Source of the DNA: an uncultured Cytophagales bacterium
Lineage (GTDB): Bacteria; Bacteroidota; Bacteroidia; Cytophagales; 172606-1
Direction of reading: 5' to 3'
Length of the DNA: 64,000 nt
NCBI GenBank assembly: GCA_902805615.1
Contig: CADCTQ010000208.1
Span: 3,574-67,573 of the forward strand
In this document: positions 32,924 through 64,000 of the stretch, piece after piece
How positions within the stretch are numbered: position 1 is the first letter of the stretch
How the letters are laid out: each line of letters opens with the position of its first letter
Translations under genes and position numbers: made by a program
The notes under the pieces: model-generated
Told to the model about the DNA's origin: nothing
What the model saw: only the letters and a program-made list of their open reading frames with translations
Databases searched by the model: none

Positions 32924-34549
32924 ATGGATATGGAACAGCAACTCTTCTTAAAACCCAATGTAGTCATCGAACCTTTGTTTGATAAATGGTACGCCTGGCC
33001 TCACCTGATTTCGCCCGCCACTGCCGCACTCAACATCCTTGACCGGCATTTGAAAATCATGAACTCATACGTTCAGGCGCCCCAGATCCACGCCGCGGCG
33101 GTTAAGAATCCGAAGATGTTGGGAGGGCCGTTCATGGACCTGGGCGGCAAGCGCGTGGAGGAAGTAAAGGAACTGAAAGCCAACACCCTGGCGCGGCAGC
33201 AGGACCTTATTGAACTGGCCCATGCCATCAAGCAACTCAATAAAATGCTGAAGGAGTCGGCAAAGGGCTATTCGTTGGAAGGTTTGTACGAAAAAGTCCC
33301 TGATCCCCTGAAAGGGTACGTTGAACTGGTGTATGACCTGAACCACAATCCCTCGTTCAGATTCTACGAAAGCCTGTTGTACAACAGCAAGTATTATAAA
33401 CCATCGTCGCAGAGCGTTGCCCTGTGGCTGACCGAAAACGACGAACGTCCCTTCGTGTTAAGTACGCCCCGGCTGCCCGACGACAAGGTACTGCACCTGG
33501 ACATGCCGTTCGCCCACCCCGGCATTGATGAATTGTCGAAGATGAGGCGGCTGCCCAACACCTTGTCGCACATCCGTAAAGTGTTGCCGCTTTCCGGAAA
33601 GGATGAAAAACTGCTGGAGACTTTTTTTACGACCGATCCCTACATTCCTTACAAAAAATACGAGGGCGACAGCATCAGGATGCGCTACTTCGGGCACGCC
33701 TGTATTCTTATCGAGACGAAAGATGTCTCCGTGCTGGTGGACCCGTTGATCAGCTATTACGGGTACATGAGCAGTATCAATCATTTTTCCGACTACGACC
33801 TTCCCGATACCATTGACTACGTGCTCATCACGCATAACCACCAGGACCACATCCTCTTCGAGACGCTGCTTCCGCTAAGGCACCGGATCAAGCACCTGGT
33901 GGTGCCGAGAACAACCAGTGGCGCGTTGCAGGACCCCAACCTCAAATACATGTTCAACGCCATTGGCTTCCGCAACGTCATTGAGATCGGCGACATGGAG
34001 CAACTCACTTTCAGTGATTGCGTGATCACGGGTATTCCTTTCATCGGTGAGCACAGTGACCTGAACATCCAGGCTAAAATCTGTCACCACATCAGGATCG
34101 GCCAGTTCTCGGTGCTGTTCGTGGCTGATTCCTGCAACATCGAACCGCGGTTGTACCAGCACATTCACGCCCAGACGGGAGACGTTGACGTCTTATTCCT
34201 CGGAATGGAGTGTGAGGGGGCGCCGCTTTCCTGGTTATACGGTCCATTGCTGCCCGAGGAAATGGAACGCGACAAGGATTTTTCAAGAACACTGTCAGGC
34301 TCCAATTTCAAGCGGGGAAAGGCGCTGGTAGACGTCTTCAACCCCCGTGAGGTGTACGTCTACGCCATGGGACTGGAGCCCTGGCTGGAGTTCATCAGCA
34401 GCAAACGGTACACCGACCAGGACCACCCAATCAAGGAGTCAGGAAACCTGGTGACCTATTGCAGAAGCAAAAATATCGTTTCTGAACGCCTGTTCGGGGA
34501 GAAAGAGCTGATGCGTGAAAAATACCTTGAACCCGCGCTGGTGAACTAG
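32924..34549 (+). CDS. CmlA-like non-heme diiron beta-hydroxylase (metallo-beta-lactamase fold) for carrier-bound amino acids
   Basis: 541 aa, close to the CmlA length class. It has an N-terminal non-MBL domain followed by an MBL-fold core with FGHACILIE, VLITHNHQDH (HxHxDH), IGEHSD and FVADSC. Confidence 0.75.
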   Translation: MDMEQQLFLKPNVVIEPLFDKWYAWPHLISPATAALNILDRHLKIMNSYVQAPQIHAAAVKNPKMLGGPFMDLGGKRVEEVKELKANTLARQQDLIELAHAIKQLNKMLKESAKGYSLEGLYEKVPDPLKGYVELVYDLNHNPSFRFYESLLYNSKYYKPSSQSVALWLTENDERPFVLSTPRLPDDKVLHLDMPFAHPGIDELSKMRRLPNTLSHIRKVLPLSGKDEKLLETFFTTDPYIPYKKYEGDSIRMRYFGHACILIETKDVSVLVDPLISYYGYMSSINHFSDYDLPDTIDYVLITHNHQDHILFETLLPLRHRIKHLVVPRTTSGALQDPNLKYMFNAIGFRNVIEIGDMEQLTFSDCVITGIPFIGEHSDLNIQAKICHHIRIGQFSVLFVADSCNIEPRLYQHIHAQTGDVDVLFLGMECEGAPLSWLYGPLLPEEMERDKDFSRTLSGSNFKRGKALVDVFNPREVYVYAMGLEPWLEFISSKRYTDQDHPIKESGNLVTYCRSKNIVSERLFGEKELMREKYLEPALVN

Positions 34550-34597
34550 CACCTTTGGCCGTGAACGAATTCTTCGCCTGACTCTAAAACAAGCACT

Positions 34598-36319
34598 ATG
34601 ACAATTTGCGGAATAAAGTTGACTCACGATGGGGCAATTGCGCTTATCGATAACGGGAAGTTGATTTTTTCCATTGAAATGGAAAAACTTGACAACAACA
34701 AGCGCCACGCAGCTTTTAACCTGACGCTTGAAAAGATCAACGCCCTGATGGGCGAGTACGGGTACAGCCTGGACGAGCTGGACCGCCTGGTGATCGACGG
34801 CTGGGGCAATGAGCTGAACCCCGCCGGCGACGGAAGCAAAAACTATTCACTGGACGTGAGTTTGCGGGGAACCGACAAACTGACCATCGGCCTGGCCTCG
34901 TACGGCCACTTGGTGGCCGATGAAGACCTGCTCAAAGGCTTGGCCTTTCATTACAACGTGGATGGATTTGAGCTGAGATACAACAGCTACCCGCACGCCG
35001 CCGGGCACATCTTAGGCGCTTATTGTACAAGCCCCTTTGCCAGTCGGAACGAAGATTCCTTCGTGTTGGTCTGGGATGGCGGCATGCCCCCGCAGCTTTT
35101 TTACTACCGGTGTCAAGAAAATAAAGTAGAAAATCTCGGCCCGTTATTCCTGCTGATGGGATTCATCTACATTAATTTTCCCCATGCGTTCGAACCCTTC
35201 AGCAAGTTGCCCAAGGACCTCTCGATTGCCGGCAAAGCCATGGCCTACATCGCACTCGGCAACGTGCAGGGTGAACTGTTACAAGTGTACAGGCAAACGT
35301 TCGCAGCGGTGCTCAACGAGGCGAAAGACCTGCGGGTGACGCCCGAGCTGTGCGTCATTGTAACGCAGGAATTCATTAAAAACGCCACGACCCCCGCAAT
35401 CAGGAGCCAGTATACGTCGGATGACATGCTCACCACCTTTCACGCCTTCATGGAAGAATTGCTGGTTGAAAGCATCGGACGGAAAGTAAAGGACTATCCC
35501 GGCTATAAAAGGAATCTGTGTTTTGCCGGAGGATGCGCCTTGAACATAAAATGGAACAGCGCCCTGCGCGAAAGCAAGCTCTTTGAAGGCGTGTGGGTGC
35601 CGCCTTTTCCCAACGATGCGGGCAGCGCCATCGGTACCGCGTGCTGCGAGATGGTCAATCAGGGTATGCGCAGCCTGGCGTGGAACGTATACAGCGGGCC
35701 GGCCCTGAGGGTATCCGGGATGGACCAAGGCTGGCAAGCGGCCAAGTGCTCCGTTGAAGAACTGGCACGTATGCTGCACGAAGTAGGAGAGCCGGTCGTC
35801 GTCCTGAACGGACGGGCAGAACTAGGCCCGCGTGCGCTTGGGAACCGAAGCATTGTAGCGCCGGCGACTGACTTTGGCATGAAGCAACTCCTGAACACAA
35901 TCAAGGTCCGGGAGCATTACCGTCCCGTGGCTCCGATCTGCCTGGAGCAGGATGCACCCGCCATTTTTGACCCGGGTTCCCCCGACCCTTTCATGTTATA
36001 CGACCATTTGGTGAGGCCGGATTGGCTGGCAAAGATCCCGGCCGTGTGTCACCTGGACCAGACGGCCCGCCTGCAAACGGTAAACGCTGCCGATAACCCG
36101 GTCATTTATAACTTGCTGACCTGTTACAAGGCGCTCAGCGGAATTCCCCTGTTGTGTAACACCAGCGCCAACTTCAAAGGGAAAGGTTTTTTTCCCGATG
36201 CCGAAAGCGCGATGACGTGGGGAATGGTCAACTACGTTTGGAGTGAGGGCATTCTGTTCACGAAAGCCGGAAAAGACCAATGGACGGCAGTAAGTCGGCT
36301 GCAATCAGAAAAAATATAA
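34598..36319 (+). CDS. NodU/CmcH-family carbamoyltransferase
   Basis: 573 aa. Motifs: MTICGIKLTHDGAIALIDNGKLIFSIEMEKLDNNKRH (N-terminal motif), FAGGCALNIKWN, GRAELGPRALGNRSI, KVREHYRPVAP, HLDQTARLQTV and LCNTSANFKG. Confidence 0.9.
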   Translation: MTICGIKLTHDGAIALIDNGKLIFSIEMEKLDNNKRHAAFNLTLEKINALMGEYGYSLDELDRLVIDGWGNELNPAGDGSKNYSLDVSLRGTDKLTIGLASYGHLVADEDLLKGLAFHYNVDGFELRYNSYPHAAGHILGAYCTSPFASRNEDSFVLVWDGGMPPQLFYYRCQENKVENLGPLFLLMGFIYINFPHAFEPFSKLPKDLSIAGKAMAYIALGNVQGELLQVYRQTFAAVLNEAKDLRVTPELCVIVTQEFIKNATTPAIRSQYTSDDMLTTFHAFMEELLVESIGRKVKDYPGYKRNLCFAGGCALNIKWNSALRESKLFEGVWVPPFPNDAGSAIGTACCEMVNQGMRSLAWNVYSGPALRVSGMDQGWQAAKCSVEELARMLHEVGEPVVVLNGRAELGPRALGNRSIVAPATDFGMKQLLNTIKVREHYRPVAPICLEQDAPAIFDPGSPDPFMLYDHLVRPDWLAKIPAVCHLDQTARLQTVNAADNPVIYNLLTCYKALSGIPLLCNTSANFKGKGFFPDAESAMTWGMVNYVWSEGILFTKAGKDQWTAVSRLQSEKI

Positions 36320-36434
36320 CGTTCCGGCGTTTGCCGCCGGCACATGCGGCTGCTTCACGCCGTCCGGGCGCCGGCCACACTGCCAAAACAGTGCCGGGCT
36401 CCCGCAGTCTGCTGAATTACTAAAATCAAGTGAA

Positions 36435-37472
36435 ATGGAAACCCACAACGCATTGGCTCTGCCTGAAAATACGCTCCGCCCGTTTCTGTGGGTGGAGCAG
36501 CAATCTTGTGCGCTCCGGACGCGTGCCGGGCTACCCGGAATACCGGCGGGCGACATACCCGGATTGCCTCTGGTGATCGCCGCGGGAAACAAAGACGTTG
36601 ATTTAAGCGCCTGGATGAGCGAGAACAGGGCCGAACTCCGACAACTGCTGAGGAAGTGCGGCGGGATTCTGTTCAGGGGGTTTGGTATCCGGTCCTCGGG
36701 TGACTTCAAGGCTTTGGTGACCCAGTGGAGTGGCAGACAGATGGAATACTTCGACCAAACTTCCCCCAGAAGCCTGATTGACGACGCCGTGTATACCTCC
36801 ACCGACTACCCGTCCGATCAACGCATCAAAATGCACAACGAGCTTTCGTATGCCCACCGGTGGCCGCTGGAGATATTCTTTTTTTGCGTGCAGCCCGCCG
36901 ACGCAGGGGGCGAAACGCCCATCGCCGACTGCCGGAAAGTGCTTTCGAAATTAAGCAAAAGGACACTGGAAAAATTCTCGGCGAAAGGAGTGATGTACGT
37001 CAGGAACATGATTGATGGCCTGGGGCTTTCCTGGCAGCGGGTTTACCAAACGGATGATCCCGAAAAAGTAAATGCACACTGTACCAGGAATGGGATCCGC
37101 TTCGCGTGGAAAGGCGAAGATCACCTTAAAACGGTTTGGACCAGGCCGGCGGTCGGCAAGCACCCGGTTACCGGTGAAGCCACCTGGTTTAATCACGCCT
37201 ATTTCTATAACATTCTGTCAACCAACCCTTTGTTGCTCGACTTGGTCGACGATAAGGACGAGTTGCCATTTAACACCTATTACGGCGACGGGTCGGAGAT
37301 TGAACCGGAGGTGATCGAAGAGATCGGCGGCGCGTTCGACAACACCCGCGTCACGTTTACATGGGAGACGGGAGACCTGCTCCTGCTGGACAATATGCTG
37401 ACTGCGCACGGCAGAAGTTCCTACACGGGTCAGCGTAAAGTTCTCGTTTCCATGTGCGAGCCCGTGTTCTGA
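36435..37472 (+). CDS. TauD/TfdA-family Fe(II)/2-oxoglutarate dioxygenase, SyrP-like (putative aspartyl beta-hydroxylase)
   Basis: 345 aa. Motifs: GGILFRGFGI, YTSTDYPSDQRIKMHNELSY (HxE facial-triad part), FFFCVQPADAGGETPIADCRKV, WFNHAYF and LTAHGR. Confidence 0.85.
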   Translation: METHNALALPENTLRPFLWVEQQSCALRTRAGLPGIPAGDIPGLPLVIAAGNKDVDLSAWMSENRAELRQLLRKCGGILFRGFGIRSSGDFKALVTQWSGRQMEYFDQTSPRSLIDDAVYTSTDYPSDQRIKMHNELSYAHRWPLEIFFFCVQPADAGGETPIADCRKVLSKLSKRTLEKFSAKGVMYVRNMIDGLGLSWQRVYQTDDPEKVNAHCTRNGIRFAWKGEDHLKTVWTRPAVGKHPVTGEATWFNHAYFYNILSTNPLLLDLVDDKDELPFNTYYGDGSEIEPEVIEEIGGAFDNTRVTFTWETGDLLLLDNMLTAHGRSSYTGQRKVLVSMCEPVF

Positions 37473-55737: not shown

Positions 55738-55843
55738 CGTTTCTTTCCTGCTTCGTTGCTGGCATCGCCGTCAATGCGCGTTTCCGCGCAGCCGGGAAGC
55801 TTGTCTCATGCCCTTTGGACAAACTGTTCTAAAACCACTCTTT

Positions 55844-56590
55844 ATGATAAAGGAAGAAGGATTGGTCAACTATGACCTGGCAGAAGATTATTGGCTAAAA
55901 AAAGTAAAAAACGTCGAGTGGCGCCGACTCCCCGTTTTTCATTCCGGAAAAGCGTACGGTTCCGGCGCGGGCTTGGAAGAGTTCAGGTTTCCTTTTCCGC
56001 CGAAACTTTCCGCCGAGCTTCGTTCCAAGTCAAAGGATACGCCCTCCAACGTGTACTTGTTGCTTTTAACGGCATGCAACATCTTACTGCATAAGTACTG
56101 GCAACATCCCGACGTACTGGTCGCCACTACGGGGTTTGCTGACCAGGAAGAAGATGCCGCCGAAGACGTCCTCCTGTTTTTTAGAAATTCTATCACCGAT
56201 GCCACCACGCCGCGCGAACTGCTCAACAACGCGCTGGATGATCTGAACCTGGCCTATGAACACCAAAGATTCGACTTCGAATCCCTGGTGAAGACGTTCA
56301 CGGCCAATGAAGCGGGTGATCTACACGCGCTCTACCAGGTGGGACTGGTTTTAATGGGCTTCAACCGGGTAAACAAAAACGGGCTGCTTGACCGGCTCAA
56401 GCTCTTGTTCAGGATTGACCAGGAAGACAGTGGTTTTGGGCTGAGCGTACAATATGATCCCGTCTTCTTCGACCGGTTCATTGTGCAGCAGATGGCCCGG
56501 AACTTCATCCACCTGATCGGCGCGGCCATGAAGGAGATTGACCAGCCGGTTGCCCTGCTGAGCGCAGCGTCACCCGAAGAAAAACTGCAC
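55844..56590 (+). other. vestigial C-terminal subdomain of a condensation domain at the NRPS-6 N-terminus
   Basis: LAEDYWLKKVKNVEWRRLP...LLLLTACNILLHKYWQHPDVLV...AYEHQRFDFESLV has the same layout as the NRPS-2 N-terminus. It has no HHxxxDG half and runs into an Asp-type A domain (ELFEQHAAANPDGIAL). Confidence 0.6.
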
Positions 56591-59500
56591 CTGCTTGGAA
56601 CACCGGAGCGGATCACCCCGCTCCATCCCGGATGGTCCGTTAAAGAACTGTTCGAGCAACACGCCGCGGCCAATCCGGACGGCATTGCCCTGCGGGCCGC
56701 GGAGGTACGCATGACCTTTCGGGAACTCAATGAACACACCAACCGGATTGCGCACCAGTTGCGGGAGCAATACCAGGTGATGCCCGGCGATTTTGTGGCC
56801 GTCATTTCTGACAGGGCGCATTTGGCGGTTATTGGCATGCTGAGTGCGATCAAGTCCGGGGCTGTATTTGTACCCATTCCCGTGGAAATGCCCCGGGAGC
56901 AGGTCGCGTACGTGCTCCGCGATACCCGGGCCAAGGTCCTGCTGACGGATTCGCGGCTGCTTTTTCATCTTACCGACCTGACTCAGTGCGAATTGTTCGC
57001 GCTGGACCTGCAGGTAGCGGCCGAAGCCGATGGCCGCAATCCCGAACTTTCCCTTTCCCCCGAAGACCCGCTTTACGCGATTTATACGTCCGGCACCACG
57101 GGAGTGCCCAAGGGAGTGCTCATCAGGCACGGGGCTTTGCTCAACTACGTGGGCTGGTTTACGGAAAAATTCGGCCTCACGCCTCAGGACCGGACGGTCC
57201 TCCTCTCGTCGTACGGGTTTGACCTGGGCTATACCAGCATTTGGGGAAGCTTGCTGAACGGCGCCGCCCTCCACGTGGTGGACAACCAGACCATCAAGGA
57301 CCCCGACCGCCTGGTTGCTTACTTAACGGCGCACGAAATTACGTTTATCAAGCTGACGCCGTCGTTGTTTTTTATGTTGATGCAGGCGTCCAACCGGCAT
57401 CAGTTAACCACGAGCAAGGTTCGCCTGGTGCTGTTGGGGGGGGAGGAAATTAACGTAAAGATCATTGCGGATTATAAAAAACTGAAAGGCGATACCGTTT
57501 TCGTCAATCACTACGGCCCGACGGAAGCAACGATAGGCTGCATCACGCACGTGATTGATGATGGGGAACTGACGCAATACCAACCGCAGCCCGTCATCGG
57601 GCGCCCGGTAAAGAACGCCAGTTGTTACATCCTCGATACCCATTTTCAGCCCGTCCCCGTCGGGGTGAAAGGGGAGCTTTGCATCTCCGGGCCCGGCCTG
57701 GCCGCGGGCTACCTGAACCAACCCGAGCTGACGAACGAAAAGTTTGTGAGCAATCCGTTCGCGAAAGGAGAATTTCTGTACCGCACCGGCGACCTCGCCC
57801 GGTGGTTGCCGGAAGGGACGATCCAATTCCTGGGAAGAGGAAAGGGCGATGAGCAGGTTAAAATACGGGGGTACCGGGTGGAATTGTCCGAAATAAAAAA
57901 AGTGCTGGAAGAACATGCCGCCGTCCGGGACAGCCTGCTGATCGTCCACCAGGATTCCGAAGGACACAAAAACATCGCGGCGTACGTGCTCACGGCCGCT
58001 GAACCGAAAGAGTTGCGGGAGTACCTGACCAGGCACCTGCCCGAGTACAAAGTGCCCGCTTACCTGATGAAGTTGGATGCCATTCCTTTGACGCCTAACG
58101 GGAAGATCAATTTCAAAGCGCTGCCCGATCCCCGGCAGGAGGCAGGCAGGAATCATTTCCAGGTACCACCCCAGAACAAAACCGAAGAAACCCTGCTGGA
58201 AATCTGGCAGCAGGTGCTCGGCCGCCAGTACATCGGCGTTACGGATGACTATTTCGAGTTGGGCGGCAATTCGTTGAAAGGCGTGCTCATCATCAATAAA
58301 ATGAGGTCGCACTTTAAACGGGACCTGTCGGTTGTTGACTTATTTGATTTCCCCACGATCAGGGCGCTGGCCGGCCACCTGCTGAAGGAGGAAACCGGGA
58401 AGGCCCGCGGTGCGGAAACGGGTGGGGAGGCCGGGTTCGGGAATGCCATCCGGCCGGTGGAAAGCAGCACGTACTACGAGGTTTCCCACGCCCAGAAACG
58501 CTTGTGGATTGTTTCGCAGCTGGGCAACGAGGGCCTGGCCTACATCCAGCCGAGGGCGTACGTGCTGAACGGCGAACTATCGGTGGAGGCACTGACAAAG
58601 TCCTTCAAGACGCTGGTAGAAAGGCACGAAGTATTGAGGACAACTTTCGTTTCGGTGGATGGCCAACCCAAACAGCAGGTCCACCCGGCGGCCTCCTCCG
58701 GTTTTGCCGTAAAATGCGTTGACATTGAAAAAGAACCGGAAGCAATTCAGTCGGAAACTGTACGGGAACTGGTCCGGCAGGACGCAACCACGCTTTTCGA
58801 CCTCCAGAAAGGGCCCCTGCTGCGGGTGATGCTGGTCCGCAAGAGCGCACAGTGCCATGTGCTGTTATTTACGACGCACCACATTGTTTGCGATGCGTGG
58901 TCGATGCAGATCATTGTCGATGAACTGTCCACCTTGTACGGCCACTACAAAAAAGGTGGTTTGTTCAATCCGCTGCCGCCGCTGCCGATTCAATACAAAG
59001 ATTACGCCGCCTGGCATAACCAGCAGGTGATTGAAAATGCGGATGATGCGCATAAAGCTTACTGGATCGGCCAGTTTGCGTCCGGCATCACAACCCTCGA
59101 CCTGCCTACCGATTACAACAGGCCCTTGGTGAAGACCGTTAACGGGAAGACGGTGCGGAGGGTGCTCAACGAGCGTCACGTTGCCGCGCTGAAGGGGATC
59201 GGCAACAAACAGGGCGCCAGCTTCTTCATGACGATCCTGGCAACGATCAACGCGCTGTTCAACAGATACGTCAATAAGGAAGACATCGTCATTGGGGTTC
59301 CGGTTGCGGGAAGGTACAACGCCGATTTGAACAACCAGGTTGGGTTTTACGTCAATAACCTGGCCATCCGCACCCGGTTCAGCAGTGAAGAAAGTTTCGA
59401 AGCGTTGTTGACGAACGTCAAGCAAAGGTCACTCGAAGCGTTCAGGCATCAGGCCTACCCCTACGATTTGCTGGTTGAAGACCTGGACCAGCAGCGGGAC

Positions 59501-62500
59501 CGGAGCCGCAATCCCTTGTACGACGTTGTATTGCTGGTGGAAGAGGCCGGCGACCCGGCGCTTGAGCGCAGCCTGGAAGGGATTGAGATTGAGAATTTCC
59601 AGACTGATTTCAACGTGAGCTGGGTCGACTTGCGGATCACCGTGGTGGAGCGACCGGGGAAGGCCGTCATCAACGTTGATTACAATACCGACCTCTTCGA
59701 GGAGTCACGGATTGCGCGGTTGTTGACCTGCTACGAGGTCCTGGTTGGATCCATTGTCGACGCCCCCGGGAAGGCCTTGTCAGCGCACGCATTTTTGCCC
59801 GCCGACGAACGGGCGTTGCTTACGGATGCGTTCAATGCAACCCGGCGGGAATTTCCGGTGAACGATACGATTGTTGACCGGTTTGAGGATTGCGTCCGGA
59901 AGTACCCGCAGGGCGTGGCCGTCTGCTTCGGCGACGAGCGGCTGACCTACGATGCCCTGAACGGGCTGGCCAACCGGCTCGCGCACCACCTGATCCACAA
60001 TTACGGCACCCGGCCCAATGAAGTCGTGGGCATCCTCCTCGACCGCTCCGTCAACGCGGTGATCAGCTTGCTGGCCGTGCTCAAAGCAGGCGCGGCGTAC
60101 ACCGTGATTGATCCGGCGCTGCCCGATTCCCGGAAAGCCTACATCTGCTCCGATCTCAACGTAAGATCAATCCTGACGGAATCCCAGCATTTATTTCAAT
60201 TGTCGGGCATTGATGCTGCCCTGTTTGCCGTTGACATTCAGTTGGCGCAGCTAGAGGAATCCCCCGAGAATCCCGGCAGGATCTGCAGCCCTTCCGACCT
60301 GGCCTACGTGATCTATACTTCCGGTTCCACCGGCAATCCCAAAGGGGTGATGCTGGAGCACATGGGGATCGTGAACCTGGCCCTCTGGCAACAGCACGCG
60401 TTCAACCTTACCAGCCAAAGCCGCGTCCTGCAGATGTTTTCGTACAGCTTCGACGGGGCGGTGGGCGAAACATTCATGGCTTTGCTGAACGGCGCCACCC
60501 TCTGCATGGCCGATACCACCAGCCTTTCGGCGGAAGGAATGATGAAGTTCATCAACGAGCACCGCATCAACGTGGCGGTATTCGTTCCTTCCTTCCTCAA
60601 GCAGCTTGATCCGGAGGAGCTAAGGGTGCCCGACTGCTGCATCGTTTCGGTAGGAGAAGTGTGCACCCCGGAACTGGCCGCCAAGTGGAGCCGCCGGTGC
60701 AAGTTCATGAACGCCTACGGACCGACCGAATACAGCGTATACTCCCACTACAACGTGGTGAATCCGGACACGCTGTCGGGTAAAGTACCGGCAGTTGCCA
60801 TCGGCGGTCCCATCTTCAATACCGCATCGTTTGTGCTGGACAAAAACGGGGAGCCCGTTGCCATCGGCCTGGACGGCGAACTATACCTGTCGGGGGTAGG
60901 GATTGCGAGGGGATACGTCGGCAAGACGAGCGAAACCCTGGCAAAATTCGTCCCGAACCGATTCTTCCTCAAGGATGTATGCCGGGATCACGGCCAGGTC
61001 GAAATGCCGGAATCACTGGCGGCACTCGCGTCGTTCCGGGCGGCCTGCCGGGAGAAACTACCCACGTCGGAGCGCTGGGGCTGCGCCATACCCGACATCC
61101 TCAGCAGTGAGTGCATGCCGCTGTACATGAACCGGCTCGATGCCGACCTGCAGCAGGAAGTGAACCGGATTCTGGAGGGGTATCTCACCAACCGGGAAGG
61201 CTACCAGGGGTACTGCCGGTATTTTATGGAAGGCTTTTACGGAACCTATGAATCGTGCGGCATGACCGGCGAGGTGCTCCGGTGGATTCTGCCGTTTGCT
61301 GACTTTGGCGGGAAAAAAGGGATAGACTTCGGGTTTGGTAACGCGGAAGTAATGAAAACCCTTGCGGAACTGGGCGCCTGCATGAAGGGGTTGGACTGGA
61401 GCCCCTACTTCGTGCAAAACGCCCGGCGGGCCGGGTTGGATGTGCACCTGGGAAAGATAGACCAGGATTTGGAAAGCCTGCTGGACACCTGCAACCTGGA
61501 GACCGGCTCATTCGATTTTGCAACCTCCACCTTGTTGCTGGACCGGCTCGAGAAACCAACCCATTTTATCAGTAACCTCTTTACTTTGCTCAAGGTGGGC
61601 GGCCGTTTTGCCATACAGACGCTTTTGCCGGTGCAGTCGGAAGACGATGGGGACAACGACCCGAAAATCGTATACACTGCCGAAAACAACCGGATCACGC
61701 CGGGCAGAAACGTCGAGGAAGACAAGTGGTACCTCACGCAGTTGCTCTACGAGTACGGCGCCGGGCACATCGAAATCTGCCAGATTCCCTATTCCGTCGT
61801 GAGCCGGGACGGCCTGCAGGATTACCAGATGTGGAGCTTCTACGGAACGAAGGCCGAACACGCAGCCCCGGCGTTGAGGAGCCGTTTGAGCAGGATGTAC
61901 AAGACGGGTGACGTCGTCCGCTATTTGCCCAACGGGCACCTGCAATTCCTCGGGCGCATGGATCACCAGGTCAAGCTGAGGGGGTTCCGCATCGAACTCG
62001 GCGAAGTCGAAAGGGCCATTACCGAAGACCCCCGCATCGAAGACGCGCTGGTAACGGCGCAGCACGACCAGGGGCAGGAGCAGTACCTGGTGGCGTACGT
62101 AGTGCCGAAGGAAAAAATTGATTTCACGGCGCTCCGCGAACGGCTCGCCAACCGGCTGCCGGGTTTCATGCTCCCCGCTTATTTTGTCGGCATTGATAAA
62201 TTTCCCCTGACAGCCAGCGGCAAGATCAACCGCAACGCCCTGCCCAACCCCGCCGCACCGGCGCAACGGCAACACGAAGGGTACGTGCCCCCGGGTACGG
62301 CGTTGGAAAAGCAACTGGCGACTCTGTGGGAACAGGTACTGAACAAGGAACGCATCGGCCTGCGCGACAATTTCTTCTTGCTGGGCGGCCACTCCCTGAA
62401 AGCAATCCAGGTCATATCCAGGGGGGCGAAAGAATTCGGCATTAAGCTCGACCTGAAGGACATCTTCAACAACCCTACGATAGCAGCACTTGCAAAAATT

Positions 62501-64000
62501 GCCGGTGCTCAACATCGCAGGCAGGCCCCCGTTGCACCAATTGCCGAGCAGGATTATTACGCGGTTTCTCACGCCCAGAAGCGGCTTTGGATCCTCGACC
62601 AGCTCGGCGGTAAACAGGCCGCCTACAATATACCCCTGTCCTACGTCATGAGAGGGCTGCGGCCGGAGCGGTTGGAGCAGGCATTCGCCGTGCTGTTGCA
62701 ACGGCACGAGAGCCTCCGGACCGTCTTCGTGCTCGTGGATGGGGAAGTAAAACAGCGGGTAAAACCATTCGGCATGCTGGCGCCCTGGCTTGAGCACCAT
62801 GATCTTACCGGCCGGGAGGACCGGGATTCGGTGGTAGCAACCCTGGCGGCTGCCGAAGTTGCCACGCCGTTTGACCTGGAGCAGGGCCCGCTGCTGAGGG
62901 TCAAGTTGCTACGGGTTGAAGAAGATGCCTTCGTCTTGTTGCTGACCCTGCATCACATCATCGCCGATGGCTGGTCGATGGATATGCTCGTGCGGGAGAT
63001 CCGGCAGTTGTACAATGCCGCCGCGGCCGGCGAAGCGCACCCTTTACCGGCTTTGTCGGTTCAATACCGGGATTACGCGGCGTGGCAGAACGCGCTGCTC
63101 AAACGGGGCGGGTTCGGCAGCATGGAATCTTTCTGGCTGGACCAGTTCGACGCACCGCATCACGGCGAGTTGCCCGGTGATTTCCCGAGGCCGGGCGTGC
63201 GGACCCACGCCGGCAAACGGCTGAATTTCACGCTGCCACCGGAAGGAAGCAAAAAGGTAATCGAGTGGGGACGGGAATTCGAAACAAGCACTTTTATCGT
63301 GCTGTTGGCCCTGGCAAACGTATTGTTGTACAAGTACACGGGTACCGCGACGGTGGTGGTAGGAACCCCGGTGGCCGGCCGGGACCAGCCGGAGCTGGAA
63401 AATCAGATCGGGCTTTACCTAAACACCATTGCCCTCAAAAATACGCTGCCCGAATCGGATCCGTTTGCCGACACGCTCCGGCAAGTGAAAGCCAGCACGA
63501 TCACTGCCTACGAAAACCAACTGTATCCTTTCGACCTGTTACTGGAAAGACTGGACTTCAAGTGGGAGCCCAGCCGGTCACCGTTGTTTGACGTACTGGT
63601 GACGTTTCAGGCCGCGGCCCCGCCGGATGCCCCCACCATGGAAGGGGTGACGATCACAAACTACCAAACCGCTACCCAGGCGGCCAAGTTCGACCTGACC
63701 CTCGACTTCATCGCGTCCGGTGACGATATCAGCCTGAGCGTTTCCTACAACACCGATCTGTTCACCAGGGGCCGGGTGGTAAAAATACCGCAACACTTCG
63801 CCCGGTTGATCGAAGATGCCGCCCGGCGGCCCGAAGCGGCGATCCGCGACCTGAACCCGTACGATGAGGAAGAACAGTTCATGATCAACCTGTTCGGCGG
63901 GGTGTCCCGGCAGTGCCCGTCCGGGGTAAACCTCGACGTGCATTTTACGGACGGCGGCAATGTAAGCGCCGGCGGGAAACAGATCATCGAAGCAATCCAC
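55844..64000 (+). CDS. NRPS-6 (3'-truncated by the window end; absent from the ORF track): dC-A-T-C-A(MT-like insert)-T-C-...
   Basis: Hand translation of the frame starting at ATG 55844 (MIKEEGLVNYDLAEDYWLKK...) runs 2719 codons to base 64000 with no stop. An in-frame ATG at 55808 is an alternative start. Motifs, in order:
- half C-like N-terminus
- A: YTSGTTGVPKGVLIRH, hand-extracted code DLTKLGHIGK (Asp-type)
- T: LGGNSLKG
- C: HHIVCDAWS
- A: YTSGSTGNPKGVMLEH, hand-extracted code DGGVVVAVYK (no match)
- T: LGGHSLKA
- C: HHIIADGWS. Confidence 0.93.
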   Translation, partial: MIKEEGLVNYDLAEDYWLKKVKNVEWRRLPVFHSGKAYGSGAGLEEFRFPFPPKLSAELRSKSKDTPSNVYLLLLTACNILLHKYWQHPDVLVATTGFADQEEDAAEDVLLFFRNSITDATTPRELLNNALDDLNLAYEHQRFDFESLVKTFTANEAGDLHALYQVGLVLMGFNRVNKNGLLDRLKLLFRIDQEDSGFGLSVQYDPVFFDRFIVQQMARNFIHLIGAAMKEIDQPVALLSAASPEEKLHLLGTPERITPLHPGWSVKELFEQHAAANPDGIALRAAEVRMTFRELNEHTNRIAHQLREQYQVMPGDFVAVISDRAHLAVIGMLSAIKSGAVFVPIPVEMPREQVAYVLRDTRAKVLLTDSRLLFHLTDLTQCELFALDLQVAAEADGRNPELSLSPEDPLYAIYTSGTTGVPKGVLIRHGALLNYVGWFTEKFGLTPQDRTVLLSSYGFDLGYTSIWGSLLNGAALHVVDNQTIKDPDRLVAYLTAHEITFIKLTPSLFFMLMQASNRHQLTTSKVRLVLLGGEEINVKIIADYKKLKGDTVFVNHYGPTEATIGCITHVIDDGELTQYQPQPVIGRPVKNASCYILDTHFQPVPVGVKGELCISGPGLAAGYLNQPELTNEKFVSNPFAKGEFLYRTGDLARWLPEGTIQFLGRGKGDEQVKIRGYRVELSEIKKVLEEHAAVRDSLLIVHQDSEGHKNIAAYVLTAAEPKELREYLTRHLPEYKVPAYLMKLDAIPLTPNGKINFKALPDPRQEAGRNHFQVPPQNKTEETLLEIWQQVLGRQYIGVTDDYFELGGNSLKGVLIINKMRSHFKRDLSVVDLFDFPTIRALAGHLLKEETGKARGAETGGEAGFGNAIRPVESSTYYEVSHAQKRLWIVSQLGNEGLAYIQPRAYVLNGELSVEALTKSFKTLVERHEVLRTTFVSVDGQPKQQVHPAASSGFAVKCVDIEKEPEAIQSETVRELVRQDATTLFDLQKGPLLRVMLVRKSAQCHVLLFTTHHIVCDAWSMQIIVDELSTLYGHYKKGGLFNPLPPLPIQYKDYAAWHNQQVIENADDAHKAYWIGQFASGITTLDLPTDYNRPLVKTVNGKTVRRVLNERHVAALKGIGNKQGASFFMTILATINALFNRYVNKEDIVIGVPVAGRYNADLNNQVGFYVNNLAIRTRFSSEESFEALLTNVKQRSLEAFRHQAYPYDLLVEDLDQQRDRSRNPLYDVVLLVEEAGDPALERSLEGIEIENFQTDFNVSWVDLRITVVERPGKAVINVDYNTDLFEESRIARLLTCYEVLVGSIVDAPGKALSAHAFLPADERALLTDAFNATRREFPVNDTIVDRFEDCVRKYPQGVAVCFGDERLTYDALNGLANRLAHHLIHNYGTRPNEVVGILLDRSVNAVISLLAVLKAGAAYTVIDPALPDSRKAYICSDLNVRSILTESQHLFQLSGIDAALFAVDIQLAQLEESPENPGRICSPSDLAYVIYTSGSTGNPKGVMLEHMGIVNLALWQQHAFNLTSQSRVLQMFSYSFDGAVGETFMALLNGATLCMADTTSLSAEGMMKFINEHRINVAVFVPSFLKQLDPEELRVPDCCIVSVGEVCTPELAAKWSRRCKFMNAYGPTEYSVYSHYNVVNPDTLSGKVPAVAIGGPIFNTASFVLDKNGEPVAIGLDGELYLSGVGIARGYVGKTSETLAKFVPNRFFLKDVCRDHGQVEMPESLAALASFRAACREKLPTSERWGCAIPDILSSECMPLYMNRLDADLQQEVNRILEGYLTNREGYQGYCRYFMEGFYGTYESCGMTGEVLRWILPFADFGGKKGIDFGFGNAEVMKTLAELGACMKGLDWSPYFVQNARRAGLDVHLGKIDQDLESLLDTCNLETGSFDFATSTLLLDRLEKPTHFISNLFTLLKVGGRFAIQTLLPVQSEDDGDNDPKIVYTAENNRITPGRNVEEDKWYLTQLLYEYGAGHIEICQIPYSVVSRDGLQDYQMWSFYGTKAEHAAPALRSRLSRMYKTGDVVRYLPNGHLQFLGRMDHQVKLRGFRIELGEVERAITEDPRIEDALVTAQHDQGQEQYLVAYVVPKEKIDFTALRERLANRLPGFMLPAYFVGIDKFPLTASGKINRNALPNPAAPAQRQHEGYVPPGTALEKQLATLWEQVLNKERIGLRDNFFLLGGHSLKAIQVISRGAKEFGIKLDLKDIFNNPTIAALAKIAGAQHRRQAPVAPIAEQDYYAVSHAQKRLWILDQLGGKQAAYNIPLSYVMRGLRPERLEQAFAVLLQRHESLRTVFVLVDGEVKQRVKPFGMLAPWLEHHDLTGREDRDSVVATLAAAEVATPFDLEQGPLLRVKLLRVEEDAFVLLLTLHHIIADGWSMDMLVREIRQLYNAAAAGEAHPLPALSVQYRDYAAWQNALLKRGGFGSMESFWLDQFDAPHHGELPGDFPRPGVRTHAGKRLNFTLPPEGSKKVIEWGREFETSTFIVLLALANVLLYKYTGTATVVVGTPVAGRDQPELENQIGLYLNTIALKNTLPESDPFADTLRQVKASTITAYENQLYPFDLLLERLDFKWEPSRSPLFDVLVTFQAAAPPDAPTMEGVTITNYQTATQAAKFDLTLDFIASGDDISLSVSYNTDLFTRGRVVKIPQHFARLIEDAARRPEAAIRDLNPYDEEEQFMINLFGGVSRQCPSGVNLDVHFTDGGNVSAGGKQIIEAIH
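60966..61890 (+). other. ~300-aa class-I methyltransferase-like insertion between A6 and A7 of the NRPS-6 second A domain
   Basis: A6 reads LYLSGVGIARGYVGKTSETLAKFVPNRF (ends ~60965). A7, MYKTGDVVRY, starts at 61895. Normal A6-A7 spacing is about 25-35 aa. The insert contains GKKGIDFGFGNAEV (motif-I-like), KGLDWSP (acidic residue after beta-2), SFDFATSTLLLDRL and LLKVGGRFAIQT (motif-III-like). Confidence 0.7.

What the first reader, a model, noticed from the sequence alone, without database searches (positions are those of the whole stretch)
60966..61890. Methyltransferase-like domain inserted between A6 and A7 of an adenylation domain (non-canonical interruption site)
In NRPS-6 module 2 the A domain reads ...GIARGYVGKTSETLAKFVPNRF. 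About 300 residues follow before ...RSRLSRMYKTGDVVRY (A7), then normal A8 ([20 protein letters not shown]), A9 (LPGFMLPAYF) and A10 (SGKINRNAL).

The insert has a Rossmann-type SAM-MT layout: GIDFGFGNA, GLD, FDFATS, LKVGGRFAI. Its first ~110 aa (Cys-rich: CRDHG, ACREK, WGCAIP, SECMP, YCRYF, ESCG) match nothing I recognise.

The interrupted A domains I know of carry their auxiliary domains between a8-a9 or a2-a3. An a6-a7 insertion sits at the N-/C-subdomain hinge region and would be structurally unusual.

The host A domain also has an unrecognised code (DGGVVVAVYK), so both the substrate and the modification are open.
Basis: partly seen in the sequence, partly recalled or inferred. Interest (0 to 1): 0.85.

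Follow-up and report, generated by a model that had tools for sequence, protein, structure and literature searches.

The report
Methyltransferase inserted in NRPS adenylation domain
A peptide-building enzyme in this gene cluster has a 310-residue methyltransferase inserted at an uncommon place in its amino-acid-activating domain; the layout is real but was already catalogued in 2020 as "family 6", and what it methylates has never been tested.

Summary
In the NRPS that starts near 55808, the module-2 adenylation (A) domain carries a 310-aa insert (60965-61894) between motif A6 and motif A7. The other A domains in the window where this spacing could be measured have 23-26 aa there.

The whole insert, including the "unrecognisable" Cys-rich first 110 aa, folds as one class I SAM methyltransferase (AlphaFold pLDDT 91.5).

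The a6-a7 site is not new. Lundy, Mori and Garneau-Tsodikova (2020, PMC8341866) defined "family 6" interrupted A domains with a "type VI" M domain at exactly this site. The window's insert matches their size and four motifs. I found about 57 NRPS-embedded relatives.

- The host A-domain specificity code is almost invariant, D[GA]GVVV[AG]VYK, in 45 of 47 members across four phyla.
- The closest solved folds are METTL9/DREV and OvoM-type histidine N-methyltransferases, not UbiG. The insert keeps METTL9's substrate-pocket Asp-Arg dyad.
- Hydroxylase genes (CmlA-like, TauD, luciferase-like) lie beside or close to the A(M) gene in about 13 of 20 informative contexts.

My working model is O-methylation of a hydroxyl that a partner oxygenase installs on the carrier-bound residue. 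This is inferred, not shown.

Verdict: a new member of a known but biochemically uncharacterised kind.

The parts
55808..64000 (+). NRPS gene with domain order C-A-T-C-A(M)-T-C. It runs 135 nt past the window end. The start is uncertain: ATG at 55808 or 55844, or the TTG at 55862 used by the public gene call. That call gives a 2757-aa product.
   Evidence: Translation; Pfam domains; identical protein P0001 and its contig L001.
59942..60964 (+). First part of the module-2 adenylation domain (A1 to A6 plus the ...FVPNRF tail). All of it belongs to Acore. Specificity code DGGVVVAVYK.
   Evidence: Pfam AMP-binding 8-383/384 ends at the A6 'GY'; motif coordinates; code.
60965..61894 (+). The 310-aa inserted type VI methyltransferase (M) domain. 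The folded part is about aa 1-297; the last ~13 aa form a low-confidence linker.
   Evidence: Pfam Methyltransf_11/23/12/31; AlphaFold pLDDT 91.5, pTM 0.90; family search.
60965..61294 (+). It contains the family-conserved stretch CRYFMEG..Y.SCG at 61214-61261, with R85 and E89 invariant and Y86 and Y95 nearly invariant.
   Evidence: Alignment A1; model secondary structure; Cys conservation; the METTL9 profile alignment starts at residue 76.
61319..61345 (+). SAM-binding motif I, GIDFGFGNA (published type VI motif i). The last Gly is Ala here, as in 6 of 30 relatives.
   Evidence: motif definition in PMC8341866.
61373..61414 (+). Type VI motif ii, GACMKGLDWSPYFV. It includes the acidic residue D144 at the end of strand beta-2, which contacts the SAM ribose in class I methyltransferases.
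61514..61546 (+). Type VI motif iii, DFATSTLLLDR. It ends in the invariant D193-R194 dyad, which aligns with METTL9 Asp213-Arg214 (the substrate-histidine pocket).
   Evidence: METTL9 residues from PMC10073072.
61601..61630 (+). Type VI motif iv, GRFAIQTLLP. It aligns with METTL9 [10 protein letters not shown].
61895..62242 (+). Second part of the same adenylation domain: A7 MYKTGD, A8 hinge motif, A9, and A10 with the catalytic Lys.
62372..62398 (+). Core motif FFLLGGHSL of the carrier (T) domain, which would hold the residue to be methylated.
32924..34549 (+). CmlA-like diiron beta-hydroxylase gene in the same cluster. A second copy lies directly downstream of this NRPS, just outside the window (L001 18366-19952).
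   Evidence: Pfam CmlA_N E=1.6e-100.
36435..37472 (+). TauD-family Fe/2-oxoglutarate oxygenase gene in the same cluster.
   Evidence: Pfam TauD E=9e-45.

Best explanation
This is a family 6 interrupted adenylation domain (A6-M-A7) carrying a type VI methyltransferase, as catalogued by Lundy et al. 2020.

Proposed mechanism:
1. The split A domain is intact. It activates one specific bulky, non-polar L-amino acid, probably aromatic. The code D[GA]GVVV[AG]VYK is shared by nearly the whole family.
2. It loads that amino acid onto the following T domain.
3. The M domain is fixed on the static Acore rather than on the rotating Asub. It then uses SAM to methylate the side chain of the tethered residue.
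4. The binding pocket offers no polar contact, so the loaded side chain probably lacks a nucleophile. I therefore propose that a partner oxygenase (CmlA-like here; TauD-type or luciferase-like in relatives) first hydroxylates the carrier-bound residue, most likely at the beta-carbon.
5. The M domain then O-methylates that hydroxyl, with the conserved Asp193 acting as base, giving a methoxy residue.

Status of each step:
- Shown: insertion site, fold, family membership, invariance of the code, neighbouring oxygenase genes.
- Inferred: catalytic activity, timing, acceptor atom, identity of the amino acid.

My confidence by layer:
- Membership: 0.95
- Active side-chain methyltransferase acting on the tethered residue: about 0.75
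- O-methylation: about 0.5
- Specifically a beta-hydroxyl installed in trans: about 0.3
For: Membership:
- The insert lies between A6 and A7.
- It is 310 aa, and motifs ii and iv match the published type VI motifs exactly; motifs i and iii match with minor deviations.
- It is 41-53% identical to dozens of NRPS-embedded relatives that have the same 312-349 aa A6-A7 gap.

Likely activity:
- The SAM motif and the acidic residues D144, D166 and D184 are conserved.
- The A-domain motifs A3, A5, A7, A8 and A10, and the T-domain serine, are intact.

Single dedicated substrate:
- The code D[GA]GVVV[AG]VYK occurs in 45 of 47 members and again in the metagenome loci.

Side chain rather than backbone:
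- The published family 7 combines this M type with a separate backbone N-methylating M domain in one A domain.

Oxygenase partner. An oxygenase gene lies directly beside the A(M) gene in:
- L001, L002, L016: CmlA-like
- L005, L018/L019, L024, L035 and the P0004 contig: TauD
- L007, L008, L031, L036-38: MupA-family luciferase-like monooxygenase
- In L006 and L034 a TauD gene lies two genes upstream of the A(M) gene.
- In total about 13 of 20 non-redundant informative contexts.

Free-standing homologues also pair with oxygenases: Cupin_8 and a Haem_oxygenas_2-type protein.

Precedent: in cystobactamid biosynthesis, CysJ hydroxylates carrier-bound Asn and CysQ then O-methylates it, both acting in trans (PMC7966384).

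Catalytic base: invariant D193-R194 aligns with METTL9 Asp213-Arg214.
Against: - No biochemical data exist for any family member.
- The oxygenase association is confounded. Many of these clusters also have Asp or Asn modules, the usual clients of TauD hydroxylases: the window has three Asp and one Asn module, and L018, L024, L006 and L034 have them too.
- Seven contexts show no oxygenase within 10 kb (L011, L013, L015, L020, L030/L041, L032, L033).
- I had no background frequency for oxygenase genes next to ordinary NRPS genes.
- The nearest solved folds are N-methyltransferases acting on imidazole rings, not O-methyltransferases.
- The window's cluster holds three oxygenases and about 13 A domains, so the pairing here is ambiguous.
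- The substrate could not be assigned. No paper in the searchable library lists this code.
Confidence: 0.6

Rival explanations
1. Published hypothesis (Lundy et al. 2020). The type VI M domain is a UbiG-like O-methyltransferase. It methylates a ring (phenolic) hydroxyl on an already hydroxylated aromatic substrate, which the A domain loads as such.
For: - NCBI conserved-domain hits to ubiquinone O-methyltransferases, and an NRPSsp prediction of Phe for most members (PMC8341866).
- UbiG is the top sequence-profile hit in the PDB, but only over the Rossmann core, residues 116-220.
- Genes hinting at extra aromatic amino-acid supply lie near some members: a DAHP synthase-chorismate mutase fusion in L033, shikimate kinase in the P0004 contig, and an HPPD/HmaS-like protein plus an aminotransferase in L016.
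- A planar ring stacked between Arg194 and Tyr287 would mimic how METTL9 binds its substrate.
Against: - The specificity pocket (G, G, V, V, V, A/G, V, Y) has none of the polar residues seen in the Tyr codes as I recall them (e.g. DASTVAAVCK, DGTITAEVAK) (comparison from my own knowledge).
- UbiG scores far below its family cut-off (29.6 against 102.95 bits) and ranks only about 28th by fold.
- CmlA- and TauD-type neighbours are sp3 C-H hydroxylases, not arene hydroxylases (established knowledge).
Confidence: 0.2
2. The M domain is a METTL9/OvoM-like N-methyltransferase. It methylates a ring or side-chain nitrogen (imidazole-, indole- or aniline-type) of the tethered residue.
For: - The top Foldseek hits are METTL9 (E=4e-15, TM 0.61-0.64 on the target), the Ostreococcus DREV enzyme, and OvsM/OvoM/OvoA. 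All of these N-methylate histidine-type rings.
- The profile alignment to METTL9 spans residues 76-276.
- The LLDRxxxP and GR......LP motifs are shared, including the Asp-Arg dyad that positions the imidazole in METTL9.
- There is a weak NCBIfam hit to ovoA_Cterm.
Against: - The host A code is unlike His codes. A His-type code, DSALIAEVW, occurs in a different, uninterrupted module of L010.
- METTL9 Asn210 is Leu in this family.
- The Pfam scan at E<=1 reported only generic methyltransferase families and no DREV family hit, so the relationship is remote and need not preserve the acceptor atom.
Confidence: 0.12
3. The insert is a catalytically dead or purely structural relic. It may serve, for example, as a docking platform for trans-acting tailoring enzymes.
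For: - The third Gly of GxGxG is Ala in the window copy.
- Inactive methyltransferase-like inserts are known in other NRPSs, such as the PchE epimerase-type insert (PMC10510592).
Against: - SAM-binding and pocket residues are invariant or nearly so across 30 diverse sequences from several phyla: G125, D144, D166, D184, D193, R194, Y287. This argues for selection on catalysis.
- The Gly-to-Ala variant occurs in 6 of 30 members and is common in active class I enzymes (the second point is from my own knowledge).
Confidence: 0.05
4. The M domain methylates the backbone alpha-amine, as the common a8-a9 and a2-a3 N-methylating M domains do.
For: Backbone N-methylation is the commonest NRPS methylation (PMC8341866). 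The invariant acidic residues could bind an ammonium group.
Against: - Family 7 pairs this M type with a dedicated backbone N-methylating type V M domain in the same A domain.
- None of the conserved motifs of type I or type V M domains is present, apart from the SAM motif.
Confidence: 0.05

Closest known systems
Family 6 interrupted A domains (A6-Ms(O,arom)-A7) with a type VI M domain; Lundy, Mori & Garneau-Tsodikova, RSC Chem Biol 2020 (PMC8341866)
   Same: - Same insertion site (a6-a7).
- Same size class (300+/-4 aa in the paper; 310 aa here between PNRF and MYKTGD, about 297 aa folded).
- Same four motifs.
- Embedded in a C-A-T module.
- Spread across several phyla.
   Different: - Motif i has Ile at position 2 and Ala in place of the last Gly. 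Motif iii has Thr at the aliphatic position.
- The host is an uncultured bacterium from a metagenome. Its closest relatives are in Pyrinomonadaceae/Blastocatellia MAGs, at 50-52% identity.
- The paper had 14 members. At least 57 embedded clusters are now detectable.
TioS A8-M-A9 interrupted A domain (PDB 5WMM) and other a8-a9 or a2-a3 interrupted A domains
   Same: A class I SAM methyltransferase nested inside an A domain, acting on the residue held by the neighbouring T domain.
   Different: - In TioS the M domain is inserted in Asub, touches only Asub, and moves with it (PMC10510592).
- Here the insert lies upstream of A7 and of the A8 hinge, so it is attached to Acore.
- No conserved motifs are shared other than the SAM motif (PMC8341866).
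METTL9 / DREV protein-histidine N-pi-methyltransferases (PDB 7Y9C, 7YF2, 8GZE, 8BVI) and OvoM/OvsM
   Same: - Best structural match.
- Shares the N-terminal lid, the LLDRxxxP motif with the Asp-Arg substrate-pocket dyad, the GR......LP strand, and the C-terminal beta-hairpin with a conserved Tyr.
   Different: - Only 14-18% identity.
- The Pfam scan reported no DREV family hit.
- METTL9 Asn210 is Leu here.
- The substrate is a carrier-bound amino acid with a non-polar recognition code, not a His-x-His peptide.
CysJ/CysQ acting on CysH in cystobactamid biosynthesis (PMC7966384)
   Same: The proposed logic is the same: a TauD/SyrP-type oxygenase hydroxylates a carrier-bound amino acid, then a SAM enzyme O-methylates the new hydroxyl to give a beta-methoxy residue.
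   Different: - CysQ is free-standing and the substrate is Asn.
- Here the methyltransferase is built into the A domain and the substrate is non-polar.
- Homology between CysQ and this domain was not tested.

Membership tests
Family 6 interrupted A domain / type VI M domain (PMC8341866) | The M domain is inserted between A-domain motifs a6 and a7 | tested here: met
   A6 ends at 60919 and A7 starts at 61895. Pfam AMP-binding ends at A6, Methyltransf_11 lies inside the gap, and AMP-binding_C follows A8.
Family 6 interrupted A domain / type VI M domain (PMC8341866) | M domain of 300 +/- 4 aa | tested here: met
   310 aa between ...PNRF and MYKTGD. About 297 aa are confidently folded; the tail is a linker. 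The exact figure depends on where the boundaries are drawn.
Family 6 interrupted A domain / type VI M domain (PMC8341866) | Motif i: G(V/A/T)(D/E)(F/I/L)GxGxG | tested here: inconclusive
   The window has GIDFGFGNA: Ile at position 2 and Ala for the final Gly. The paper notes members with Gly replaced by Ala or Cys. In my alignment 6 of 30 sequences have Ala.
Family 6 interrupted A domain / type VI M domain (PMC8341866) | Motif ii: GxxxxG-aliphatic-(D/E)xxPxx(V/I) | tested here: met
   GACMKGLDWSPYFV at 61373-61414.
Family 6 interrupted A domain / type VI M domain (PMC8341866) | Motif iii: DF(A/V)-aliphatic-(S/T)x(L/M)xLD(R/Q) | tested here: met
   DFATSTLLLDR at 61514-61546. There is one deviation: Thr at the aliphatic position.
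Family 6 interrupted A domain / type VI M domain (PMC8341866) | Motif iv: G(R/K)F(A/S)(I/L)(Q/G)T-aliphatic-LP | tested here: met
   GRFAIQTLLP at 61601-61630.
Family 6 interrupted A domain / type VI M domain (PMC8341866) | Groups with other a6-a7 M domains rather than with other M types | tested here: met
   HMMER gives E down to 4e-82 against NRPS-embedded inserts with the same A6-A7 gap. The window's insert sits inside the embedded clade of a quick NJ tree. The paper's own accessions were not available for comparison.
Family 6 interrupted A domain / type VI M domain (PMC8341866) | O-methylation of a hydroxylated aromatic substrate (the paper's own hypothesis, not yet demonstrated) | not testable with these tools
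   This needs enzymology. The sequence and context evidence is mixed; see the rival explanations.
Class I (Rossmann-fold) SAM-dependent methyltransferases | Seven-strand Rossmann-like fold with a GxGxG-type motif and an acidic residue at the end of strand beta-2 | tested here: met
   Pfam Methyltransf_11 41.2 bits (cut-off 21.2) and Methyltransf_23 32.3 bits (cut-off 27). AlphaFold model with pLDDT 91.5. 981 PDB methyltransferase matches at E<=1e-3.
DREV / METTL9 histidine N-methyltransferases | Fold and substrate-pocket motif (LLDRxxxP with the Asp-Arg dyad) | tested here: met
   Top Foldseek hits, E=4e-15. The motif alignment includes D193/R194 against Asp213/Arg214.
DREV / METTL9 histidine N-methyltransferases | Recognised by the family's own sequence model | tested here: not met
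   The Pfam scan at E<=1 reported only generic methyltransferase families. PDB sequence hits to METTL9 and DREV are weak: E=1.2e-5 and 1.8e-7 with the family profile. I therefore treat this as a remote relative, not a member.
UbiG-type ubiquinone O-methyltransferases | Passes the NCBIfam TIGR01983 cut-off | tested here: not met
   29.6 bits against a cut-off of 102.95. Only the SAM-binding core aligns.
Classical interrupted A domains (families 1-5: a8-a9 or a2-a3) | Insert between a8-a9 or a2-a3 | tested here: not met
   A2-A3 and A8-A9 are contiguous here, and the only gap is A6-A7.

The most novel reading that the evidence does not exclude
The type VI M domain is a METTL9/DREV-derived methyltransferase fixed on the Acore of a dedicated A domain. 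It works with a trans-acting hydroxylase (CmlA-like, TauD or luciferase-like, swapped between lineages) to build a beta-methoxy aromatic or bulky residue directly on the carrier protein. This would be the first in-cis beta-O-methylating NRPS domain. It would also give a predictable 'code plus insert' signature for methoxy residues in uncharacterised peptides from Acidobacteriota, Bacteroidota and Proteobacteria.
Probability: 0.3. Interest if true: 0.55.

Novelty: new member of a known kind. Interest (0 to 1): 0.35.

Why it matters
The architecture itself is already in the literature, so this window does not reveal a new kind of enzyme. No type VI M domain has been characterised, however, and three results here make the open question easier to test:

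1. The family uses one nearly invariant specificity code, so a single substrate screen should serve the whole family.
2. Its nearest structural relatives are METTL9/OvoM-type enzymes rather than UbiG. This points to Asp193 and Arg194 as residues to mutate.
3. Oxygenase genes recur beside the A(M) gene. This suggests that assays should include a hydroxylase.

If the methoxy-residue model holds, genome-mining tools could predict this modification from sequence. An Acore-anchored tailoring domain would also be a second design template for engineered bifunctional A domains.

Tried and rejected
- **Word-indexed protein search.** It found nothing with the insert or with a 30-sequence alignment. The exhaustive HMMER search did find the family, so the empty results were a tool limitation and not evidence of an orphan.
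- **A separate Cys-rich or metal-binding module in the first 110 aa.** Rejected: the Cys residues are not conserved and the region is part of one confidently folded domain.
- **'Insert at the hinge'.** Rejected: the hinge is the A8 motif.
- **Histidine as the substrate** (prompted by the METTL9/OvoM fold match). Rejected as the leading idea because the host code is non-polar, and a His-type code occurs in a different, uninterrupted module of L010.
- **Looking for a characterised product.** Searches for a6-a7, CmlA plus methoxy, beta-methoxy-Phe/Tyr, and the literal specificity codes found no characterised family-6 pathway. The leads in the Pedobacter, Bacteroidetes and sponge papers were irrelevant.
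- **Typing the TauD and CmlA-like neighbours with NCBIfam** to infer their amino-acid clients. No informative model matched.
- **Orthology of the CmlA-like genes.** The Chitinophaga copy is closer to the window's other CmlA-like gene (50%) than to the one beside the A(M) NRPS (42%). Orthology therefore gives no support for a dedicated partner.
- **The paper's supplementary accession lists** were not held, so I could not check overlap with its 14 members.
- **A recent foreign origin for the insert.** GC content does not suggest one: 0.578 for the insert against 0.59 for the flanks.
Full report
**1.

The + strand frame beginning at 55700 is open from about 55808 to the window end. It encodes an NRPS with the domain order C-A-T-C-A(M)-T-C. 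An identical 2757-aa protein is on a 41-kb contig of metagenome assembly ERZ1300029. On that contig the gene ends 135 nt beyond the window.

In module 2, A6 (GELYLSGVGIARGYV) ends at 60919 and the A-domain sequence continues to ...FVPNRF at 60964. A 310-aa stretch then runs from 60965 to 61894. MYKTGD (A7) starts at 61895 and is followed by normal A8, A9 and A10 motifs and the T-domain serine motif.

Pfam agrees. AMP-binding ends at the A6 'GY', Methyltransf_11 (E=1e-9) lies in the gap, and AMP-binding_C starts after A8. TIGR01733 is split into two stretches.

In the five other A domains of the window where my motif patterns matched both ends, 23-26 aa separate A6 from A7. This one has 328 aa.

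**2. The insert is one domain**

I built a 30-sequence alignment of relatives. With it, AlphaFold gives a single compact model: pLDDT 91.5, pTM 0.90. It has an N-terminal helical lid (about aa 1-110), a Rossmann core, and two long C-terminal beta-hairpins. Only the last ~8 residues are disordered.

The "Cys-rich" first 110 aa are therefore the lid of the methyltransferase. Most of its Cys residues occur in 1-3 of 30 relatives. C84 and C98 each occur in 15 of 30. What is conserved in the lid is R85, Y86, E89 and Y95.

**3. The a6-a7 site is already published**

Lundy, Mori and Garneau-Tsodikova (RSC Chem Biol 2020, PMC8341866) sorted bacterial interrupted A domains into seven families.
- Family 7 adds a second M domain between a2 and a3.
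- The a6-a7 "type VI" M domain is 300+/-4 aa and is defined by four motifs.

The window's insert carries all four:
- GIDFGFGNA (motif i, two soft deviations)
- GACMKGLDWSPYFV (motif ii)
- DFATSTLLLDR (motif iii, one soft deviation)
- GRFAIQTLLP (motif iv)

The authors proposed, from conserved-domain hits to UbiG, that type VI domains O-methylate hydroxylated aromatic substrates. They stated that this is uncharacterised. I found no later paper in the searchable library that characterises a member.

**4. The family is larger than reported**

An exhaustive HMMER search of 1.84 billion representative proteins with the insert gave 68 clusters at E<=1e-30. About 57 of the well-aligned hits are embedded in NRPSs. 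Where the flanking motifs could be recognised, the A6-A7 gap is 312-349 aa.

Scans of genome and metagenome contigs gave 15 and 17 loci. Sources include:
- Pyrinomonadaceae and Blastocatellia MAGs (the closest, at 50-52% identity)
- Bacteroidota, including Chitinophaga
- Gammaproteobacteria, including Exilibacterium; a Lysobacter enzymogenes member came from the cluster look-up
- Rugamonas
- Streptomyces yaizuensis

Two proteins carry two such modules each (L009, L010).

About 23 free-standing methyltransferases of 260-300 aa form the outgroup in a quick NJ tree. A few free-standing copies sit inside the embedded clade. That tree is low-resolution and I treat it as tentative.

**5. New lead: one specificity code**

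I aligned the A4-A5 region of each host A domain to the GrsA-PheA reference. The result is D[GA]GVVV[AG]VYK in 45 of 47 family members, and the same code again in the metagenome loci.

The insert and a particular substrate pocket therefore travel together. The pocket is large (Gly at positions 236 and 239) and wholly non-polar apart from Tyr331. This fits a bulky hydrophobic or aromatic amino acid. No paper in the library lists this code.

Some clusters carry genes that hint at extra aromatic supply:
- a DAHP synthase-chorismate mutase fusion (L033)
- shikimate kinase (P0004 contig)
- an HPPD/HmaS-like protein plus an aminotransferase (L016)

**6. New lead: the fold is METTL9-like**

Foldseek against the PDB ranks these first:
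- METTL9: E=4e-15 to 4e-13, TM 0.60-0.64 on the target
- the Ostreococcus DREV enzyme
- OvsM, OvoM and the OvoA methyltransferase domain

All of these N-methylate histidine-type rings. UbiG ranks about 28th.

A family profile aligns to METTL9 over residues 76-276, but to UbiG only over the SAM core, 116-220. The C-terminal half alone puts METTL9 first and aligns

- METTL9: [42 protein letters not shown]
- family consensus: aistLvLDRvekPknllknllsvLkegGrfaiqtlLPivp

Published motifs iii and iv are therefore METTL9 motifs. In METTL9, Asp213 hydrogen-bonds the substrate imidazole and promotes its deprotonation, and Arg214 stacks on the ring (PMC10073072). The equivalent D193 and R194 are invariant in all 30 aligned relatives.

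The relationship is remote: 14-18% identity, and the Pfam scan reported only generic methyltransferase families. It identifies a likely catalytic pocket but does not fix the acceptor atom.

**7. New lead: oxygenase neighbours, with a caveat**

The gene directly beside the A(M) NRPS gene is:
- a CmlA-like diiron beta-hydroxylase in L001 (this window's contig, just downstream), L002 and L016
- a TauD-family oxygenase in L005, L018/L019, L024, L035 and the P0004 contig, where it is fused to a C-like domain
- a MupA-family luciferase-like monooxygenase in L007, L008, L031 and L036-38

In L006 and L034 a TauD gene lies two genes upstream of the A(M) gene.

That makes about 13 of 20 non-redundant contexts in which any non-NRPS neighbour is visible. 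The seven without an oxygenase in view are L011, L013, L015, L020, L030/L041, L032 and L033.

Three recurring arrangements stand out:
- [Thr module]-[luciferase-like monooxygenase]-[C-A(M)...]
- [PKS]-[T-aminotransferase-C]-[TauD]-[C-A(M)-T-C]
- [Asn module]-[TauD]-[racemase]-[NRPS]-[A(M)]

Free-standing homologues also sit beside oxygenase-type genes.

The caveat is serious. Many of these clusters also have Asp or Asn modules, which are the usual clients of TauD enzymes. The window has three Asp and one Asn module; L018, L024, L006 and L034 have them too. The window's own cluster contains two CmlA-like genes and one TauD gene for about 13 A domains. I also had no background rate for ordinary NRPS genes. 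The association is suggestive, not proven.

**8. Most likely mechanism**

- The A domain is intact and should load its non-polar amino acid onto the following T domain.
- A methyltransferase needs a nucleophile and the recognised side chain seems to lack one. The simplest reading is that a partner oxygenase hydroxylates the tethered residue and the M domain then O-methylates it.
- CmlA- and TauD/SyrP-type enzymes are known beta-hydroxylases of carrier-bound amino acids (PMC7966384, and established knowledge).
- The same two-step logic, with free-standing enzymes, makes beta-methoxy-Asn in cystobactamid biosynthesis.
- The hinge is the A8 motif, and a8-a9 inserts such as the one in TioS ride on Asub. 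An a6-a7 insert is instead anchored on the static Acore. The loaded T domain would have to visit it as a separate stop.

I give about 0.95 to family membership, about 0.75 to an active side-chain methyltransferase, about 0.5 to O-methylation, and about 0.3 to the beta-methoxy version. The rivals are ring-hydroxyl O-methylation (the published idea), METTL9-like N-methylation, a dead domain, and backbone N-methylation.

**9. Verdict**

The feature is real and correctly located. It is a new member of a known, catalogued and biochemically uncharacterised kind. Its remaining value lies in the open question of what type VI M domains do. The invariant code, the METTL9-like pocket and the oxygenase neighbours give concrete experiments for that question.

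Noticed in passing
window 32924-37472 and L001 18366-21491: The cluster encodes two CmlA-like diiron hydroxylases (45% identical to each other), a carbamoyltransferase (34598-36319), a TauD oxygenase, and, just past the window, a class III aminotransferase followed by more NRPS and PKS genes. The product is probably a heavily beta-hydroxylated, possibly O-carbamoylated, lipopeptide-like molecule.
   Followed up: partly
window 385-55737 (A domains at nt 4588, 7720, 10840, 14870, 18017, 22472, 25897, 29059, 39707, 50251, 53431, 57506): Specificity codes of the other A domains: Asp-type DLTK[IL]GHIG three times, Asn-type DLTKIGEIG, Val-type DAFWLGGTF, Ile-type DAFFLGITY, Ala-type DLFNNALTY twice, DTESIGTVC twice (Lys/Orn-like), DSELTAEVC (His-like?), and an unassigned DAKHSGTIN. 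The amino-acid assignments are from my memory of published codes.
   Followed up: partly
L009 (A5 motifs at 9749 and 16985) and L010 (A5 motifs at 3122 and 9572): Two NRPS proteins, one from a Cyclobacteriaceae MAG and one from Exilibacterium tricleocarpae, each contain two A domains with the family code. They therefore probably hold two a6-a7 interrupted modules in one polypeptide.
   Followed up: no
L011 2784-12107 (Rugamonas sp. CCM 8940): The NRPS reading frame is broken around the M-domain match, with ORFs at 2784-9638, 9853-10539 and 10494-12107. This is either a pseudogene or assembly frameshifts.
   Followed up: no
L007, L008/L028, L031, L036-L038: A conserved gene order, [NRPS ending in a Thr-code module]-[MupA/Atu3671-family FMN luciferase-like monooxygenase]-[NRPS starting with C-A(M)], recurs in Gammaproteobacteria, Pyrinomonadaceae and other metagenome contigs. 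This looks like one widespread, uncharacterised cluster family.
   Followed up: partly
L017 636-2541; L044 8001-9750: Free-standing homologues of the insert (313 and 350 aa) lie next to, or overlap, oxygenase-type genes. One pairs with a Cupin_8 protein near A-T-reductase genes. The other pairs with a Haem_oxygenas_2/TENA-type protein in a non-NRPS neighbourhood.
   Followed up: partly
P0004 contig (JGI 3300078620; no DNA held): Two ~806-810-aa proteins fuse a condensation-like domain to a TauD domain. They alternate with NRPS genes upstream of the A(M) gene. The same contig has a radical SAM/SPASM gene, a shikimate kinase and a carbamoyltransferase.
   Followed up: no
tool behaviour: The word-indexed homology search returned no hit for the insert or its alignment, not even the identical protein. 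The exhaustive HMMER search did contain that protein and found 170 hits. Empty results from the indexed tool should not be read as 'no relatives'.
   Followed up: yes
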